DNA from: Brevundimonas sp.
GTDB taxonomy: Bacteria > Pseudomonadota > Alphaproteobacteria > Caulobacterales > Caulobacteraceae
Length of the DNA stretch: 36,209 bases
Reading direction: 5' to 3'
Assembly (NCBI GenBank): GCA_036387575.1
Contig: DASVTM010000448.1
Location: 1-36,209 of the forward strand
Under the pieces are notes generated by a model that was not told the DNA's origin, searched no databases, and was given only the letters and a program-made list of their open reading frames with translations. Shown piece by piece: positions 27,609 through 35,111 of this stretch. The translations under genes and the position numbers were made by a program. The stretch's first letter is position 1. Each line of letters starts with the position of its first letter.

Positions 27609-30600
27609 TCAGACCGAGGTGGCGACGGCGCGGATGGCGCCGTTGGCGATGGTCAGTTTGGCGAAGGTCCAGCCCGATCCGGAGGCCTCGATTTCGTCGA
27701 CCGAGGCACGGACGCTTTCGACCACGGCCTGACGCGGGCCGATCCATTTTTCGACAGCGGCCTCGGCGGCTTCCTCGCTGACCCCCACGGAGGCGTCGGT
27801 GCTCCTGGCCACGGCGCGGGTCAGGGCGACCTGTTCGGCCATCAGTTCCTCGATCAGACGGCGGACGGCAAGACGATCGAAATGGTCGTTCGACGGAACG
27901 CCGCCCGCCGCCGCTCGCAGCCGGTCGAAATCGAAGGCGGCGCCGACCTGGTGATACAGGCGCGCCATCGCGGGTTCGGACCAACCGGCTTCCTTGGCCA
28001 GATCGCCGATATCGGCGGTGGCGACGAGGGGACGCAGCATCGCGATGGTTTTCGCCAGATCCTCGCCCACGCCCATCGCGGCGAACTTCTGCAGCCGCTT
28101 GTCGAGACGGTCCTGCTCGAAGCGGGACAGGACGTCGCCGCCCTCCTGACGCAGGGCGTCTGCGGCCGGGCGGTAGGCGGCGATCAGGCTGTCGACCGTG
28201 ACATTGTCGCGACCCGCCCGCTTGGCCAGCCAGAAGGTCTGGCGGCGCAGCACGGTCGAGATTTCGGTGTAGAGCGCGGTCTGGGTCTCGGCGGGAATCT
28301 TGAGGTCCAGCGCACTGACGGCGTCCCAGGCCTCGTCGAGGCGGAAGACCCGGCGGGCGGCCTCGAAGGCGATGACGAAGGCCGTGGTGTCGACCTCGGC
28401 CGAGGCCTTGAGACGGTCCGGGAAGGTCGGGCCTGCCATGTTGACGATCTCGTTGCAGAGCACCGTGGCGACGATCTCGCGACGCAGTCGGTGGCTCTTC
28501 ATCTCTTCCTCGAACCGGGCGAGCGGCTCGGGGAAGTAGCGGACCAGCGTCTCCTCGAAGAAGGGATCCTCGGGCGCCTTCGAGGCCACAATCTCCTCGG
28601 CCAGCTCCAGCTTGGAATAGGCCATCAGCACGGCCAGCTCGGGCCGGGTCAGGGCCGCACCGGACGACTTCATCTCGTTGATGCGCAGGTCGCTGGGCAG
28701 ACCCTCGACCTTGCGGTCCAGTCTGCCTCTGGCGGTCAGCATCTGCATGAACTGCTGCTGGGCGTCGAGCGCGCCGGCCCCTTCGGCCTGTTGCAGGGCC
28801 AGGGCGAGGGTCTGGTCGTAGTTGTGGGCCAGCACCTTGAGGCCGACTTCATCCGTCATCGAGGCCAGCAGCGCCGTGCGTTGATCGGCAGGCAGGACGC
28901 CGTTGGTCACCGCCGAGCCGATCAGGATCTTGATGTTGACCTCGTGGTCGGAGGTGTCGACCCCGGCCGAGTTGTCGATGGCGTCGGTGTTGATGCGGCC
29001 CCCGGAGCCGCCTGCGCCGATCCGCGCGAACTCGATCCGGCCCGCCTGGGTGAAGCCGAGATTGGCGCCTTCGCCCACGACCTTGACCCGAAGCTCGCCC
29101 GCGTCGATGCGCAGCGCGTCGGTGCCCTTGTCGCCGACCTGGGCGTCGGTCTCCGTCGCGGCCTTCACATAGGTGCCGATGCCGCCGAGATAGAGCAGTT
29201 CGGCGGGGGCCTTGAGGATGGCGCGCATCAGGCTGACGGGATCGATCGTGTCCTCGGCGATGTCGAGGGCTGCCTTGATCTGGGGCGTCAGTTGGATCGA
29301 CTTGGCGCCGCGCGAGAAGACGCCGCCGCCTTCCGAGATCTTCGCCTTGTCGTAGTCCTGCCAGGACGAGCGCGGCAGCTGGAACAGGCGGTTGCGCTCT
29401 TCCCATGAGGCGGCGGGATCAGGCGTCGGATCGATGAAGATGTCGCGGTGGTCGAAGGCGGCGATCAGCTTGGACGCCTTGGACAGCAGCAGGCCGTTGC
29501 CGAAAACGTCGCCCGACATGTCGCCCACGCCGACGACGGTGAAGGGCTCGGACTGGATGTCCTTGCCGATCTCGCGGAAGTGGCGCTTGACCGCCTCCCA
29601 CGCGCCGCGGGCGGTGATGCCCATGGCCTTGTGGTCGTAGCCGACGGATCCGCCCGAAGCGAAAGCATCGCCGAGCCAGAAACCGTAGTCGGCCGAGACG
29701 CCGTTGGCGATGTCGGAGAAGGTCGCTGTGCCCTTGTCGGCGGCGACGACCAGATAGGGATCGTCTCCCTCATAGGCGACGATGCCGTCGGGTCGCGTCA
29801 CGGCGCCGTTGCCGTTGATGTTGTCGGTGATGTCCAGCAGGCCGGACAGGAAGGTCTTGTAGGCGCGGATGGCCTCGGCCTGTTGCGCGTCGCGATCCCC
29901 GCCCGCGCGGACGATGCCGGACAGGTATTTGGGGAAGAAGCCGCCCTTGGAGCCGACCGGGACGATGACCGCGTTCTTGACCTGCTGCGCCTTCACCAGA
30001 CCGAGGACCTCGGTGCGGAAGTCGTCGCGACGGTCGGACCAACGCAGGCCGCCGCGTGCCACGGGGCCGAACCGCAGGTGGACGCCTTCGATGTGCGGAG
30101 CCCAGACGAAGATTTCGCGGAAGGGCTTGGGCAGGGGGATGTCTTCGAGCTCGCGCGAGGCGATCTTGATCGAGATGTGCGGCTTGGGCTGACCATCGGC
30201 GTCGCGCTGATAGTAGTTGGTGCGTTTGATGGCCCCGACCAGCAGGGCGAGGCGGCGCAGGGCCCGGTCGTGGTCGAGGCTCTTCACGTCCTGCAGGAGG
30301 GCCGTGATCTTGTCGGACAGTTCGGCGGTAGAGGCCGCGCGTTCCTCGGCGGGCCCGCCATGATCGGGATCGAATTTGCAGGCGAACATCGAGACGATGG
30401 CGCGGGCGACGTCGGGATAGTCGCGCAGGGCCTCCTCCTGCACCGCCTGCGACGGATCGAGACCGGTCTGCTGGCGATAGCGGGCCAAGGTGCGGACCAG
30501 AGCCGCCTGACGCCAGTCGACGCCCAGCTCCAGCACCAGCCGGTTGAAGCCGTCGCTCTCGGTCAGGCCGTTCCAGACGGCGGCGAAGGCGGTCTCGAAC

Positions 30601-32522
30601 GGCGTCTTGATGTCGTCGAAGTCGAGGCTGGCGCCGCGCGGGTCTTCCAGCAGGAACTCGTGGACGTGGATCTCGGTGTCGCCGGCGTCGTCAGAGGCGG
30701 GGCGGATGGCGTGGCCGAACTCTTCCAGCGTCTTGAGGCCCATGTCGGCAAGGATCGGCAGGACGTCGGAGAGCGGCACGGCGGCTCCACGATGGTAGAG
30801 CTTGAAGCGGAACTGCAGCTCATTGTCGCCTACGGCGCGGAAGGCGCGCACGGCGACGGGTTCACCCCCATCCTTCACGCCAGATGCGTTGAGGCGGTCA
30901 ATTTCCTGCAGATCGGCGACGGCCTCGGCGGCGTCGTAGCGGTCGCGATAGCCTGGCCCGAAGGCCTCGGCCCATTTGGCCGACAGGGCGCCGATCTCGG
31001 CGTCGTCGATATCCGCGTCGCGGGCGGCGCTTTCGAAACGGTCGATCCAGCTGCGGCCGGCCTCGGCCACGGCGGACTCCAGGGCGACTGGATCGGGCGT
31101 CGGGTGATTGCCCGGCGTGACCCCGAGAATGTAGTGGATGCGCACGAGGGGGGCGTCCGACAGCTGCGGATACCAGGCCGACAGACGGCCGCCCCATGCG
31201 GCGGCGAGGATGCGGGCGATCCGCTCGCGGACGCTGGAATCGAAACGCTCGCGCGGGATAAAGGCGAGGACCGAGATGAACCGGTCGAACGGGTCCTGAC
31301 GCGTGAAGGTTTTGATGCGCGGCCGGTCGTAGAGGTGGAGAATGCCAAGCGCGATGTTGAGCAGTTCGTCCTCGGATATCTGGAAGAGCTCGTCGCGCGG
31401 ATAGTTTTCGAGGATGTTTTTGAGGCGTTTTTCGTTGTGACTGCCCGGGGCCTTGCCTGCACGGGCGAGGGCGTTGGCGACCTTGCGGCGCACCAGCGGC
31501 ACCTCCGAGGCGGCGCGGTCATAGGCCTCGGCGGTGAACAGGCCGACGTAGCGGGTCTCGCCCGATGGACGACCGTCGTCGCCGTAGCGTTTGACCCCGA
31601 TGAAATCCATATAGGCGCGGCGGTGGACGCGGCTGCGAAGGTTGGCCTTGGCGACGGTGACCGGATCCGACATGTCGATCTGACGTTTCATCTGCGCCGT
31701 CAGAATTGCGGGTTCGGAGGTGCGGCGCAGGACGGTGCGTTCCGGGTCCCGCAGGACGCCGACACCGGCGCTGGCCTGACCAAGCGGCTCCTCAGGGGCA
31801 TAGCCGCCGTCCGGAGTACGCGGGTAATCGTAGTCGCGGGCGCCGAGGAAAACGAAATGGTCCGCGTTGAGCCAGCGCAGGAACTCGAGGTTTTCGGCGA
31901 CGATCGCCGGATCGACGGTGCCGGGACAGGCTTCCAGATGGGCGACCGAACGTTCCATGAGATCATGCATTGCCGCGTGATCGGAAACCGCGGCCTGGAC
32001 GTCGGCGAGGGTTTGGGCAAGGGCTGTCGTCAGCGCCTCGCGACGCTCGGCTGGAAGCGGATCGATGATCACGACGATCATGGACTCGCGTTGGTCACCG
32101 GTCTTGCGGGCCCCCGACACGTCACGTCCAAGCGTCACTACCGGGTGAAACAGGGCCCGGACCGAGACGCCGGCGTCGGCGAGTTCGCCCATGACGCTGT
32201 CGACGAGGAATGGACGGTCGTCCTGGATGATCGAAACGAGGTCGTAACCGGTGCCGGACCCATCAGCGGCGACAAGGGACTGGGCGACAATTCGGGCCGC
32301 CTCGCCGGTCTTTCGCACATCGGCGGAGGTCCAGACCCGCGCGAGGAGGGCGGCGAGATCCGGCCCGCCCAGTTCGGGCGTTTCATCTGCGGCGTAGTCT
32401 TCGTGAGCTTGCGTCAGATAGGCGCGGACCAAGGGCCCGCCGCCCCCTCCTGCCTTTTCGAACGCGGCTTCGAGCGCCTCCAGGGAAATTGCCTGAGGGA
32501 CGGAGCGAAGGTCGCCAGACAT
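27609..32522 (-). CDS. gdhZ: Large NAD-specific glutamate dehydrogenase (GdhZ-like)
   Basis: About 1640 aa; VARGGLRWSDRRDDFRTEVLGLVKAQQVKNAVIVPVGSKGGF, DPYLVVAADKGTATFSD, GVGDMSGDVFGNG, DAIDNSAGVDTSDHEVNIKI. Start at ATG 32522. Confidence 0.95.
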   Translation of the reverse strand: MSGDLRSVPQAISLEALEAAFEKAGGGGGPLVRAYLTQAHEDYAADETPELGGPDLAALLARVWTSADVRKTGEAARIVAQSLVAADGSGTGYDLVSIIQDDRPFLVDSVMGELADAGVSVRALFHPVVTLGRDVSGARKTGDQRESMIVVIIDPLPAERREALTTALAQTLADVQAAVSDHAAMHDLMERSVAHLEACPGTVDPAIVAENLEFLRWLNADHFVFLGARDYDYPRTPDGGYAPEEPLGQASAGVGVLRDPERTVLRRTSEPAILTAQMKRQIDMSDPVTVAKANLRSRVHRRAYMDFIGVKRYGDDGRPSGETRYVGLFTAEAYDRAASEVPLVRRKVANALARAGKAPGSHNEKRLKNILENYPRDELFQISEDELLNIALGILHLYDRPRIKTFTRQDPFDRFISVLAFIPRERFDSSVRERIARILAAAWGGRLSAWYPQLSDAPLVRIHYILGVTPGNHPTPDPVALESAVAEAGRSWIDRFESAARDADIDDAEIGALSAKWAEAFGPGYRDRYDAAEAVADLQEIDRLNASGVKDGGEPVAVRAFRAVGDNELQFRFKLYHRGAAVPLSDVLPILADMGLKTLEEFGHAIRPASDDAGDTEIHVHEFLLEDPRGASLDFDDIKTPFETAFAAVWNGLTESDGFNRLVLELGVDWRQAALVRTLARYRQQTGLDPSQAVQEEALRDYPDVARAIVSMFACKFDPDHGGPAEERAASTAELSDKITALLQDVKSLDHDRALRRLALLVGAIKRTNYYQRDADGQPKPHISIKIASRELEDIPLPKPFREIFVWAPHIEGVHLRFGPVARGGLRWSDRRDDFRTEVLGLVKAQQVKNAVIVPVGSKGGFFPKYLSGIVRAGGDRDAQQAEAIRAYKTFLSGLLDITDNINGNGAVTRPDGIVAYEGDDPYLVVAADKGTATFSDIANGVSADYGFWLGDAFASGGSVGYDHKAMGITARGAWEAVKRHFREIGKDIQSEPFTVVGVGDMSGDVFGNGLLLSKASKLIAAFDHRDIFIDPTPDPAASWEERNRLFQLPRSSWQDYDKAKISEGGGVFSRGAKSIQLTPQIKAALDIAEDTIDPVSLMRAILKAPAELLYLGGIGTYVKAATETDAQVGDKGTDALRIDAGELRVKVVGEGANLGFTQAGRIEFARIGAGGSGGRINTDAIDNSAGVDTSDHEVNIKILIGSAVTNGVLPADQRTALLASMTDEVGLKVLAHNYDQTLALALQQAEGAGALDAQQQFMQMLTARGRLDRKVEGLPSDLRINEMKSSGAALTRPELAVLMAYSKLELAEEIVASKAPEDPFFEETLVRYFPEPLARFEEEMKSHRLRREIVATVLCNEIVNMAGPTFPDRLKASAEVDTTAFVIAFEAARRVFRLDEAWDAVSALDLKIPAETQTALYTEISTVLRRQTFWLAKRAGRDNVTVDSLIAAYRPAADALRQEGGDVLSRFEQDRLDKRLQKFAAMGVGEDLAKTIAMLRPLVATADIGDLAKEAGWSEPAMARLYHQVGAAFDFDRLRAAAGGVPSNDHFDRLAVRRLIEELMAEQVALTRAVARSTDASVGVSEEAAEAAVEKWIGPRQAVVESVRASVDEIEASGSGWTFAKLTIANGAIRAVATSV

Positions 32523-32713: not shown

Positions 32714-33583
32714 CTAGAAGCGGTAGCTCATGCCGACGTTGAAGGCATGCAGGCCAAACTTCGAGTTCGAGCGGATGATGTCCGTGCCGGTCGTGTTGGG
32801 AGCCAGAACGAAGGGGTTGGTCGCCGCGGCCGAGCCCTGACCAACGCGGATCACGTTATCGCCCGCGTCGAGCGAGGTGTAGAGGTACTCGCCTGTGACG
32901 CTGAGATTCGGGGCGAGGAAATATTCGACGCCGGCGCCCGCCTGATAGCCGTCCGCCTCGTCTTCATCGACGCGCGAGGTGAAGGTGTTGGCGCCGTTCG
33001 AGGTGAAGAAGGTGTTTTCCAGTTCACCGCGAGCCACGCCGCCCGTCGCATAGAGCAGAGCCGGACCGTAGGCGTAGCCGACGCGCGCGCGGACGGCTGC
33101 GAGGTTATTCAGGGTGCGGGTGAAGGTGTAGGATGCTGGGGTCGTCGAGAAGCCGGTGACGCTGTCTTCCTGATTGGCTGCGCTGTAGTCGCCGACCACG
33201 CCGACGACGAAGGACCCGACCTGGAAGTCGTAACCGGCGCGGACGCCGCCCTGGGTTCCCGGGCCGTCCTTGTCACAGCCGGCAGCGGCGGTGGTGGAGT
33301 TGGCGCCGGCATCGCAGAACCCCGGCGAGAAGGCGTCGGCGCCGGCCGGAGTGGCGAGCGTGACGGTGTCGCCGAAGTTTCCGTCGAGGTTGCGGTCGAA
33401 GCGCAGGCGCTCGTCGTCTTGGCCGTTCTGCTGGGTGAAGCCGCCGAAGACGCCGACGTAGGGGCCGGTCCAGCTTTCAGGGCCGGATTGACCAAACAGG
33501 GTCTGGGCGGAAGCCGGGGCGGCGACGGCCATCAGAAGAGCAGCGGTGGAGGCAGCGGCGGCGAGTGTAGCGGTTCGTTTCAT
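32714..33583 (-). CDS. Outer-membrane beta-barrel protein (Omp25/RopB-like)
   Basis: Signal peptide ASA|Q, WTGPYVG, GVRAGYDFQ, RARVGYA, LYATGG, C-terminal VGMSYRF beta-signal; start at ATG 33583. Confidence 0.9.
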   Translation of the reverse strand: MKRTATLAAAASTAALLMAVAAPASAQTLFGQSGPESWTGPYVGVFGGFTQQNGQDDERLRFDRNLDGNFGDTVTLATPAGADAFSPGFCDAGANSTTAAAGCDKDGPGTQGGVRAGYDFQVGSFVVGVVGDYSAANQEDSVTGFSTTPASYTFTRTLNNLAAVRARVGYAYGPALLYATGGVARGELENTFFTSNGANTFTSRVDEDEADGYQAGAGVEYFLAPNLSVTGEYLYTSLDAGDNVIRVGQGSAAATNPFVLAPNTTGTDIIRSNSKFGLHAFNVGMSYRF

Positions 33584-33753
33584 GGGGAGGGTCCTTTGCG
33601 AATGGGTGAGCGAATCCCGCCTCATCTCGAGCGGCGTTCGCGGTCCTAACCCCGCAGATACGAAACGGGATGCATTCGGGATGAGGCTTGTGCCAATCAG
33701 TGGCACTTTTACATCAGCGGTTTTGTCGTTCGGAAACAACGCTCTTCCGAAGC

Positions 33754-33882
33754 GGAAAAACAAGGCCGCCGGACGGGGGGTCCGACGGCCTGCTTTCTCG
33801 GGGTCGACGCTGGAGGGGAATAGAGCGCCGTCCCCGGATCGACATGGACCCTGGAGGGGGGAGGGGAGGTCCGCGTCGTCTG
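33754..33882 (-). ncRNA. Putative three-hairpin sRNA with C-rich anti-SD loops (cuckoo/alpha-r14/CcsR-like architecture)
   Basis: Three consecutive stems (33840-33878, 33799-33836, 33763-33791) with loops UCCCCUCCCCCCUCCAG, CUAUUCCCCUCC and CCCCC, then a U-tract. G-U pairs work on the minus strand; promoter-like element upstream. Confidence 0.62.
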
Positions 33883-33888
33883 AGTTCA

Positions 33889-33917
33889 AGATAAGAAGGC
33901 GTTGTGGCGGTTCAAGA
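33889..33917 (-). promoter_or_regulatory. Putative RpoH/RpoD-type promoter of the sRNA
   Basis: Minus strand TCTTGAA-ccgccacaacgcctt-CTTATCT; the -35 element overlaps the AI-2E TGA stop codon. Confidence 0.5.
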
Positions 33918-35111
33918 CCCGGTATCGGTGCCCGATGCCGGTTTGACCTGTGGCGGCTTGACGCGCTTGTGGCCGGGCTTCGACCCGGCCGTTCGCGAAC
34001 TCGGCTCGTCGCTTTCAGCCGTCTTCGCCACAGCGGCTTTCTTTTCCTCGTCGGCAAAGGGGGCTCCGTCGCCCGACAGCAGGATAGCCATCCACCTCGA
34101 GCCCTTGAACTCGGCCAGGATCGCCATGGCCATGACCGCGAGAGGCGTCGACAGGAACATGCCCACCACGCCCCACATCTTGCCGAAGAGGGCCAGCGAC
34201 AGCAGGACCGCAACCGGATCGATGTTCTGGTTCTCGCCCTGCATGCGCGGCTGAATCATGTTGCCGACGATGAAGAGCACCGTCTGCAGGCCGATCAGGA
34301 GGACAATCGCCTGCCAGTAGGTCTGGAACTGTACGAGCGCGAACAGCGGCGGAGCCAGGCCCCCGATCGCGCCGCCCAGAACCGGAATGAAGCCGACGAT
34401 GAAGATGACGAAGGTCCAGAACTCGGCGTTCTGAAGACCCACGGCCTTCATCAGGATCCACGCGAACACGCAGATGATCGCACCGGTGACGGACTGAACC
34501 CAGATGTAGCCCTCAACCCCGCTGCGGACACGCTGGAACACTTCCATGGCTTCGGAGCGCTGCAGTCGTTCGGGGAACATCGCGATCAGCTTGCGCCTGA
34601 AGCCGCCCTGCGACGCGAGGAGGAAGCCTAGATAGACCATGACGAAGAACGCGCCCGAGGCGACGTTCTGGGCCTGCAATGCGATGGCGGTGAGATAGCC
34701 CCGAACGTCGATGCCGTTGATGAGTGTCTGCAGGGTCGGTGGTTGTTGAACGCCCACGAGGTTCGAACCATCGCGCAGAATCTGGTCGATACGTGGCCCG
34801 ATGTTGGTCGCGACGCCCGAAGCCTCGCCGAAGAAGCCGGATGCCCCATAGATGATGATCGCGATGGAGCCGGCAAAGATCAAAACCACCACGACAAGCG
34901 AGGCTATGCCCGCCCAGCGTTGCGGCAGGAGCGTCTTTTCCTCGATGGTCCGCTTCACGCCGTCGATGACGATCATCAGGAAGATGGCCATCGCCAGCGG
35001 CGTCAGGATGTCCGCCAACCAGACCAGAGCGGCAGCGCACGTCACTACCGCGATCAGAACGAGGGCGTTGCGAGAGACGGTTGGCGTGGCGACGGAGATA
35101 GGTGGTGTCAT
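33912..35111 (-). CDS. AI-2E (PerM/TqsA) family transporter
   Basis: ILTPLAMAIFL, FIPVLGG, GNMIQPRMQG, WGVVGMFLSTPL. Confidence 0.92.
   Translation of the reverse strand: MTPPISVATPTVSRNALVLIAVVTCAAALVWLADILTPLAMAIFLMIVIDGVKRTIEEKTLLPQRWAGIASLVVVVLIFAGSIAIIIYGASGFFGEASGVATNIGPRIDQILRDGSNLVGVQQPPTLQTLINGIDVRGYLTAIALQAQNVASGAFFVMVYLGFLLASQGGFRRKLIAMFPERLQRSEAMEVFQRVRSGVEGYIWVQSVTGAIICVFAWILMKAVGLQNAEFWTFVIFIVGFIPVLGGAIGGLAPPLFALVQFQTYWQAIVLLIGLQTVLFIVGNMIQPRMQGENQNIDPVAVLLSLALFGKMWGVVGMFLSTPLAVMAMAILAEFKGSRWMAILLSGDGAPFADEEKKAAVAKTAESDEPSSRTAGSKPGHKRVKPPQVKPASGTDTGS

What the first reader, a model, noticed from the sequence alone, without database searches (positions are those of the whole stretch)
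33754..33917. Unannotated three-hairpin sRNA candidate with repeated anti-Shine-Dalgarno loops and a heat-shock-like promoter
Seen in sequence (minus strand): hairpin 1 CGACGCGGACC-[UCCCCUCCCCCCUCCAG]-GGUCCAUGUCG; hairpin 2 CGGGGACGGCGCU-[CUAUUCCCCUCC]-AGCGUCGACCCCG; hairpin 3 AGGCCGUCGGAC-[CCCCC]-GUCCGGCGGCCU followed by UGUUUUU. Hairpins 1 and 2 share CCCCUCCAG. Each stem has a G-U pair that works only on the minus strand, which fixes orientation. Upstream is TCTTGAA-N15-CTTATCT, whose -35 contains the AI-2E stop codon; GTTCAAGA is repeated 26 bp apart. Established: tandem hairpins with CCUCCUCCC-type loops define the cuckoo/alpha-r14 sRNAs of Rhizobiales and Rhodobacterales, and R. sphaeroides CcsR RNAs are RpoH-dependent. 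Inference: a ~130-nt, possibly stress-induced, anti-SD sRNA, perhaps a divergent Caulobacterales member or a new family.
Basis: partly seen in the sequence, partly recalled or inferred. Interest (0 to 1): 0.75.

Follow-up and report, generated by a model that had tools for sequence, protein, structure and literature searches.

The report
Heat-shock-controlled small RNA of Caulobacteraceae

Summary
The feature is real: three minus-strand hairpins (z -4.26) behind a sigma32-type promoter. A model of it finds one copy in 108 of 121 Brevundimonas genomes, with compensatory stem changes and the promoter in 68 of 68 distinct copies. The same slot before gdhZ holds a mostly four-hairpin version in 16 other genera. 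In Caulobacter crescentus that slot is the annotated, uncharacterised sRNA CCNA_R0002. Published tables show it rises 11-20-fold on sigma32 activation, falls without rpoH and carries a strong sigma32 ChIP peak, while the upstream gene stays flat. The duplicated CTTGAA is chance (1 of 68). Descent from alpha-r14 or alpha-r7 is unresolved. Translational repression through the C-rich loops is inferred; no target was found and no transcript was seen in Brevundimonas.

The parts
33911..33916 (-). -35 element CTTGAA of a sigma32/RpoH-type promoter, overlapping the AI-2E stop codon
   Evidence: CTTGAT 42, CTTGAA 22 of 68 distinct copies; same motif upstream of hslV, groES and one hsp20 gene of this genome
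33889..33895 (-). -10 element CTTATCT (relatives: CC(C/T)AT(C/T)T), spacer 15 nt
   Evidence: spacer 15 in 61 of 68; -10 ends 4-6 nt before the model start in 68 of 68
33756..33881 (-). Predicted small RNA, about 126 nt; +1 at 33881 inferred from the 7-nt gap between -10 and the annotated 5' end of CCNA_R0002
   Evidence: CCNA_R0002 coordinates and sequence compared by eye with locus L167
33840..33878 (-). Hairpin 1 with C-rich loop CCCCUCCCCCCUCCA (33866-33852), presumed pairing seed
   Evidence: 6 of 8 modelled pairs show changes on both sides
33799..33836 (-). Hairpin 2 with C-rich loop CUAUUCCCCUCC (33823-33812), presumed pairing seed
   Evidence: 4 of 4 modelled pairs show changes on both sides
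33756..33791 (-). Hairpin 3 plus U-tract: intrinsic terminator, the most sequence-conserved part (GCCG(C/U)CGG...CCGGCGGC)
   Evidence: loop variable
33912..35111 (-). Upstream neighbour: AI-2E family transporter (counterpart of CCNA_00087); not part of the RNA
   Evidence: Pfam PF01594; separable from the element in six genomes
32714..33583 (-). Downstream neighbour: outer-membrane beta-barrel gene, present in 28 of 72 loci
   Evidence: Pfam PF13505; tally
27609..32522 (-). NAD-glutamate dehydrogenase gdhZ (counterpart of CCNA_00086), the constant downstream landmark
   Evidence: Pfam PF05088; within 71 of 72 loci

Best explanation
The element is a conserved single-copy small RNA gene, likely transcribed on its own from a heat-shock (sigma32/RpoH) promoter as its Caulobacter counterpart CCNA_R0002 is, and its two C-rich loops are predicted to pair with G-rich ribosome-binding regions of mRNAs and so would lower their translation during protein-folding stress. 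Steps: (1) sigma32 binds CTTGAA-N15-CTTATCT and starts transcription near 33881 (shown for the Caulobacter counterpart in published tables; inferred here from the conserved motif). (2) Transcription ends at hairpin 3 and its U-tract (predicted). (3) Stems 1 and 2 keep the loops unpaired (structure supported by covariation). (4) The loops pair in trans with G-rich or Shine-Dalgarno stretches, probably with little help from Hfq (inferred by analogy with NfeR1, AbnZ, GsrN; untested). Steps 1-3 about 0.9; step 4 as repression about 0.6.
For: Fold z -4.26 on the minus strand only. One match per genome in 108 of 121 Brevundimonas genomes at E<=1e-5 (the 20 training sequences are among them). 9 of 23 pairs compensatory on an unfitted MAFFT alignment; 16 of 23 pairs, 97.2% of cells paired, 0 of 500 shuffles on the model-fitted alignment of 68. 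Promoter at a fixed distance in 68 of 68; its matrix scores 14.9-18.9 upstream of 3 of 5 scorable heat-shock genes of this genome against 0.7% of random windows at >=14. CCNA_R0002 lies between CCNA_00087 and gdhZ on the same strand; log2 +4.29 on DnaKJ depletion, +3.44 on rpoH(V56A) overexpression, -1.87 in the rpoH deletion, CCNA_00087 between -0.06 and -0.32; sigma32 ChIP peak maximum 223 against 24 for hslV, listed as directly controlled. In six genomes where AI-2E sits elsewhere the element keeps its promoter. UCCCC lies in a loop in 68 of 68 and 20 of 20 copies while stems vary. R0002 forms Hfq RIL-seq chimeras with mRNAs. C-rich loops are the pairing sites of NfeR1, AbnZ and GsrN (passages).
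Against: No RNA evidence in Brevundimonas: the 4 of 24 listed runs that were laid cover only the AI-2E gene. No target: loop pairing to 2089 predicted start regions of this genome is no better than to coding interiors; AI-2E and gdhZ start regions pair worse than background; the rnc start region has no conserved G-rich site in 30 genomes. The C. crescentus copy lacks CCUCC in its loops and scores only 21.6 bits against the Brevundimonas model, so orthology rests on position, promoter, terminator and intermediate forms, and targets may differ between genera. R0002 is in the overexpression library in which only AbnZ and R0184 reduced plating. Hfq enrichment is weak (log2 0.93). clpB (8.2) and the second hsp20 (6.0) lack a good motif, dnaK is cut by a contig end, and rpoH was not found in this 79%-complete assembly. 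GsrN uses a C-rich loop to activate its target, so the sign of regulation is not fixed by loop content.
Confidence: 0.6

Rival explanations
1. It is the same sigma32-driven sRNA, but its loops activate or stabilise targets (as GsrN does for katG), or sponge G-rich RNAs or a protein, rather than block ribosome binding.
For: GsrN precedent in the same family; R0002 chimeras include two ncRNAs, R0016 and R0040 (the latter not significant), and R0002 is in read 1, the usual target position, in 4 of its 5 significant chimeras; no enrichment of pairing at start regions; CCUCC is not universal (13 of 20).
Against: In Brevundimonas both loops carry CCUCC, the anti-Shine-Dalgarno core (68 of 68; its match to the 16S tail is recalled, not from a call); the most similar architectures, NfeR1 and AbnZ, repress. 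The chimeras mostly come from one library.
Confidence: 0.25
2. It descends from the same ancestral gene as rhizobial alpha-r7 (SmrC7/SmelC023) or alpha-r14/cuckoo and is a diverged member of one of them (a claim on descent, compatible with the best explanation).
For: Window hits ar14 full-length at 41.9 bits (E 3.7e-6) and ar7 at 28.8. True ar7 loci (17 over the cut-off among 20 scanned) are four-hairpin RNAs behind CTTGAA-N15/16-CACAAAT with a GCCGCC...GGCGGC terminator and a GUCCCCC loop, a loop also found in 7 of 20 non-Brevundimonas copies; SmrC7 is listed as single-copy with an RpoD/RpoH promoter.
Against: The Brevundimonas model scores 11 ar7 loci at 28.9-38.3 bits and 7 ar14 loci at 33.0-39.9 bits: it sees shared architecture and cannot choose. 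Neighbours differ (ar7: polA and MarR; cuckoo: DUF1127). The cuckoo survey of 2,680 genomes lists no Caulobacterales and treats SmelC023 and similar RNAs as analogous, not homologous.
Confidence: 0.3
3. It is only the 3' UTR and terminator of the AI-2E mRNA, or an RNA processed from it.
For: It begins 30 nt after the AI-2E stop on the same strand and follows AI-2E in 71 of 72 loci, most of which were fetched with AI-2E as the query.
Against: It keeps promoter and structure where the upstream gene is divergent or different; R0002 rises about 20-fold while CCNA_00087 is flat and is listed as not part of an operon.
Confidence: 0.03
4. It is a 5' leader or attenuator for the downstream omp/gdhZ genes.
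For: It stays upstream of gdhZ even when AI-2E moves (71 of 72 loci).
Against: gdhZ mRNA falls (-0.3 to -1.0) when R0002 rises; an omp gene is inserted between them in 28 of 72 loci; no alternative fold was predicted (MFE and centroid agree).
Confidence: 0.04

Closest known systems
CCNA_R0002 of Caulobacter crescentus NA1000 (annotated, uncharacterised ncRNA; PMC11724286 Table S4, PMC5760092 S3 Table, PMC12559287 Supplementary Data 1)
   Same: Same slot between the AI-2E gene and gdhZ, same strand, similar length (129 vs ~126 nt), sigma32-type promoter, C-rich loops, same terminator stem.
   Different: Four hairpins instead of three; loops are UCCCC-type without CCUCC; body sequence strongly diverged (21.6 bits against the Brevundimonas model).
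Cuckoo / alpha-r14 family (Rfam RF02344 ar14, RF02791 CcsR1; NfeR1, CcsR1-4)
   Same: Adjacent hairpins with variable stems and C/U-rich loops; hairpin number varies between lineages; RpoH control as for CcsR1-4.
   Different: No CCUCCUCCC in any copy; below the Rfam cut-off; single copy; third hairpin is a terminator with a short loop; no DUF1127 gene beside it.
alpha-r7 (Rfam RF02342; SmrC7/SmelC023)
   Same: Single copy, RpoH-like promoter, short 5' hairpin plus two unlike C-rich loops plus GC-rich terminator in the four-hairpin relatives.
   Different: Below the Rfam cut-off (28.8 vs 60); flanked by polA and MarR rather than AI-2E and gdhZ; function also unknown.
GsrN (CCNA_R0081) and AbnZ (CCNA_R0123) of Caulobacter
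   Same: Stress-linked sRNAs that pair through C-rich loops with G-rich mRNA sites.
   Different: Different loci and sequences; GsrN is sigmaT-driven and activates katG; AbnZ is cut from the 3' end of an efflux operon.

Membership tests
Cuckoo/alpha-r14 | 2-4 adjacent hairpins of 24-50 nt, at least 6 pairs, linkers up to 10 nt | tested here: met
   Hairpins of 39, 38 and 29 nt, linkers 3 and 7 nt; criteria from PMC4615179
Cuckoo/alpha-r14 | CCUCCUCCC in every loop | tested here: not met
   0 of 68 Brevundimonas and 0 of 20 other copies; the paper's list of tolerated variants is a figure I could not read
Cuckoo/alpha-r14 | Loops of 9-27 nt in each hairpin | tested here: not met
   Loops 15, 12 and 5 nt; third loop usually a tetraloop. 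Hairpins 1-2 alone meet the size rule
Cuckoo/alpha-r14 | Rfam RF02344 score >= 58.8 bits | tested here: not met
   41.9 for the window; best 43.7, hits in 7 of 17 homologous loci
Cuckoo/CcsR (CIN1) | DUF1127 gene adjacent | tested here: not met
   Flanks are AI-2E, OMP beta-barrel and NAD-GDH; DUF1127 elsewhere in the genome was not searched
Cuckoo/CcsR (CIN1) | RpoH-dependent promoter | tested here: met
   Motif in 68 of 68; published dependence for the Caulobacter counterpart
alpha-r7 (RF02342) | Rfam score >= 60 bits | tested here: not met
   28.8 for the window; no ar7 hit at E<=1 in 17 homologous loci
alpha-r7 (RF02342) | Position next to polA | tested here: not met
   ar7 loci flanked by polA and MarR (PMC3927594); this element by AI-2E and gdhZ
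alpha-r7 (RF02342) | Conserved loop sequences GUCCCCCG and UAUCCCCUCUCC | tested here: inconclusive
   GUCCCCC in 7 of 20 non-Brevundimonas and 0 of 68 Brevundimonas copies; cross-scores do not separate ar7 from ar14
CCNA_R0002 orthologue | Same position and strand between AI-2E gene and gdhZ | tested here: met
CCNA_R0002 orthologue | Same promoter type and terminator stem | tested here: met
CCNA_R0002 orthologue | Alignable body sequence | tested here: inconclusive
   L167 scores 21.6 bits (E 0.057); other syntenic copies 22-51 bits form a gradient
Trans-acting anti-SD sRNAs | Loop-dependent pairing with and repression of target mRNAs | not testable with these tools
   Target scans were uninformative

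The most novel reading that the evidence does not exclude
This RNA is the repressor arm of the sigma32 heat-shock response across Caulobacterales: a single ancient RpoH-driven sRNA, possibly shared by descent with rhizobial alpha-r7, that shuts down translation of G-rich-leader mRNAs and explains part of the 447 proteins that fall on sigma32 activation with under 12% of their mRNAs falling.
Probability: 0.2. Interest if true: 0.75.

Novelty: new variant of a known kind. Interest (0 to 1): 0.45.

Why it matters
In Caulobacter, sigma32 activation lowers 447 proteins, under 12% of them at the mRNA level (PMC5760092), which points to post-transcriptional control. A directly sigma32-driven, family-wide conserved sRNA is an obvious candidate, and an inducible plasmid for it already exists (PMC11724286), so the question can be tested at once. 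The gene sits in supplementary tables but has no Rfam family, and CCNA_R0002 occurs in no main text of the library searched (searches found no study of it). The kind of RNA, a stress-induced C-rich-loop sRNA of alphaproteobacteria, is well known, which limits the surprise.

Tried and rejected
RNA evidence: 24 runs listed, all at share 0.03; 4 laid, none covers the element: uninformative. Own-genome Rfam ar14 search missed the window site (loose first look), so genome-wide ar14 misses are weak. Family-wide search with the Brevundimonas model found most non-Brevundimonas copies poorly (40 of 146 genomes at E<=0.01, many of them plain terminators); synteny was needed. Target prediction in the own genome on a crude gene call (2089 start regions): no excess over coding interiors. 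Cis targets AI-2E, omp, gdhZ: not supported, although CCNA_00087 protein falls 2.1-fold with flat mRNA. rnc, the one high-confidence mRNA partner in RIL-seq (47 reads, one library): no conserved G-rich site at its start in 30 genomes; rnc mRNA falls only 0.4-0.65 log2, along with the upstream lepB. The top chimera (157 reads) is with the opposite strand of its own locus and may be an artefact (inference). Homology to alpha-r7: raised, then found undecidable because ar14 controls score as well. Class-wide searches for ar7 and ar14 loci gave no true members in the genomes drawn. No TSS entry for R0002 was found in 20 supplements of PMC4287350. Landt et al. 2008 was not held and was not seen. First regex for family-wide copies was too strict (2 hits).

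Full report
Observation. The sequence holds the three hairpins as described. The minus strand of 33745-33890 folds at -67.8 kcal/mol, z -4.26, with 0 of 200 shuffles as stable; the plus strand is unremarkable (z 0.07). Hairpin 3 with its U-tract scores as an intrinsic terminator. No sigma-70 site was found in 33560-34000; CTTGAA-N15-CTTATCT at 33916-33889 is the only such match in the window (0.01 expected). The neighbours are an AI-2E transporter upstream, and an outer-membrane beta-barrel gene and NAD-glutamate dehydrogenase (gdhZ) downstream, all on the minus strand. Record titles of the 80 closest loci name Brevundimonas or unassigned Caulobacteraceae.

Conservation in the genus. Of the 30 best AI-2E loci, 20 carried promoter plus three hairpins by pattern; one more was found later by the model (L005), one is cut by a contig end, and 8 have something else behind AI-2E. 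RNAalifold on the MAFFT alignment of those 20 gave the same three stems, with changes on both sides in 9 of 23 pairs. The model built from them matched 73 places in 96 sources and exactly one place in 108 of 121 Brevundimonas genomes at E<=1e-5, training sequences included. One of the 13 misses (G119) has a weak copy at the expected place (29 bits). On the 68 distinct matches 97.2% of cells pair and 16 of 23 pairs show changes on both sides, 0 of 500 shuffles as high; this alignment is fitted to the model and leans towards it. All 68 have the promoter ending 4-6 nt before the model start, spacer 15 in 61; all have CCCCUCC, none CCUCCUCCC; the third loop is usually a tetraloop; the doubled CTTGAA is in 1 of 68. 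In five genomes chosen because the element was not behind AI-2E it was found elsewhere in 5 of 5; there and in G243 it keeps its promoter and sits before gdhZ or omp-gdhZ with a different gene upstream. It is therefore not the AI-2E 3' UTR.

The promoter. A matrix from the 68 promoters scores the element 19.6, and regions upstream of hslV 18.9, one hsp20 15.4 and groES 14.9, against 0.7% of 1500 random 350-nt windows at 14 or more; clpB (8.2) and the other hsp20 (6.0) score poorly and dnaK has no upstream DNA in the assembly. rpoH was not found in this 79%-complete genome.

Beyond the genus. Of 30 genomes from 24 other genera, 27 have the AI-2E gene. I scanned 23 of those 27 loci, leaving out 4 with no visible element (L151, L158, L174, L176); the scripts recovered promoter -10 box, C-rich hairpins and the same terminator stem in 21 (20, L172), from 16 genera, mostly with four hairpins. 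L156 and L173 show a form by eye only. The -10 box and the terminator stem are what stays alignable. In other families of the order, 8 of 19 regions upstream of gdh held AI-2E; four of these show a shorter version with a GUCCCCC loop and a similar terminator but no clear promoter of this type, a possible distant relative.

What it is. Table S4 of PMC11724286 lists CCNA_R0002, 129 nt, minus strand, between CCNA_00087 and CCNA_00086, not part of an operon, Hfq co-IP log2 0.93, log2 +2.5 in the hfq mutant. Locus L167 carries what reads by eye as the same sequence directly after the AI-2E gene, and CCNA_00086 is gdhZ. So the window's element occupies the place of a transcript already annotated in C. 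crescentus. In the RNA-seq table of PMC5760092, R0002 is at log2 +4.29 after 6 and 9 h of DnaKJ depletion, +4.03 and +3.47 with rpoH(D252G), +3.44 on rpoH(V56A) overexpression and -1.87 in the rpoH deletion; CCNA_00087 stays between -0.06 and -0.32 and gdhZ between -0.33 and -1.02. Its sigma32 ChIP peak has a maximum of 223 against 24 for hslV and it is listed as probably directly controlled. In L167 the -10 box ends 7 nt before the annotated 5' end, which places +1 here at 33881 (inference). Caveat: the C. crescentus copy scores only 21.6 bits against the Brevundimonas model, other syntenic copies 22-51, so orthology rests on position, promoter, terminator and intermediates.

How it likely works. 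Variable stems with constant unpaired C-rich loops (UCCCC in a loop in 68 of 68 and 20 of 20 copies; CCUCC in 68 of 68 and 13 of 20) are the anatomy of pairing sRNAs such as NfeR1, AbnZ and GsrN. I commit to trans pairing with G-rich ribosome-binding regions and reduced translation, about 0.6, with activation or sponging as the main rival. Nothing here shows a target. Pairing to 2089 crudely predicted start regions is no stronger than to coding interiors. The neighbours' start regions are not targets by this test. Hfq RIL-seq in unstressed early stationary cells gives R0002 11 chimeras, 5 significant, 2 high-confidence: its own opposite strand and rnc; the rnc start region has no conserved G-rich site in 30 genomes. 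Overexpression screening singled out only AbnZ and R0184 among the library's sRNAs, so R0002 alone did not block growth. No public RNA run covered the element.

Comparison with known families. Rfam's best match is ar14, full length, 41.9 bits, below the 58.8 cut-off, then ar7 at 28.8 against 60; 17 homologous loci reach at most 43.7. The cuckoo definition needs CCUCCUCCC-type motifs in loops of 9-27 nt, and its survey of 2,680 genomes lists no Caulobacterales. It works like a cuckoo RNA in design but is not a member by the tests run. Alpha-r7 looked closer (single copy, RpoH-like promoter, four hairpins), but the Brevundimonas model scores 11 ar7 loci at 28.9-38.3 bits and 7 ar14 loci at 33.0-39.9, and the neighbours differ. 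Descent is open; convergence is plausible.

Literature seen. PMC4615179: parts 1-4 of 6 of the text. PMC11724286, PMC5760092, PMC12559287, PMC4287350: passages and searched supplement rows. PMC5869019, PMC11005374, PMC5988900, PMC3927594, PMC8034643, PMC7143759: passages only. Landt et al. 2008: not held; it may describe this RNA's first detection. A search for CCNA_R0002 found it in no main text, and searches on Caulobacter heat-shock sRNAs listed no study of it; most subscription papers, figures and other supplements were out of reach.

Verdict. A real, conserved, probably sigma32-driven sRNA; the Brevundimonas three-hairpin form of the uncharacterised Caulobacter sRNA CCNA_R0002; a family without an Rfam model, of a known kind. 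Its interest lies in being a ready candidate for the post-transcriptional part of the sigma32 response (447 proteins down, under 12% at mRNA level). Interest 0.45.

Noticed in passing
L317, L318, L322, L328 (about 477-610); 56 viral contigs: Phage contigs, many near 60 kb, carry ar14 RNAs above the Rfam cut-off (70.8-81.2 bits in 4 of the 12 loci scanned; L333 and L351 score over 100 and may be host flanks). Earlier scan notes mention cuckoo-like RNAs in other phages.
   Followed up: partly
L023:2780-2900 (G088): Behind AI-2E this genome has a different C-rich element containing a stretch that reads like Caulobacter CCNA_R0088/R0092; those two RNAs rise in the hfq mutant but are not rpoH-dependent.
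   Followed up: no
L220, L221, L223, L224, L227 (other families of the order): A conserved two-part element (hairpin with GCGUCCCCCCACCC loop, then terminator with ACACGUCCCC loop) lies upstream of gdh, usually after AI-2E, without the sigma32-type boxes found by my scan.
   Followed up: partly
C. crescentus CCNA_00087 (counterpart of window 33912-35111): Its protein falls 2.1-fold on DnaKJ depletion while its mRNA is flat; its start region does not pair with the loops in Brevundimonas.
   Followed up: partly
window 33740-33762 and 33690-33706: A second small hairpin directly after the terminator, and a plus-strand terminator-like hairpin in the omp leader.
   Followed up: no
window 32714-33583: The outer-membrane beta-barrel gene is inserted between the sRNA and gdhZ in 28 of 72 Brevundimonas loci and absent from the rest.
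   Followed up: partly
L007, L010, L014, L017, L018, L021, L027: In one Brevundimonas group AI-2E has been separated from the sRNA-gdhZ block and abuts a convergent gene.
   Followed up: yes
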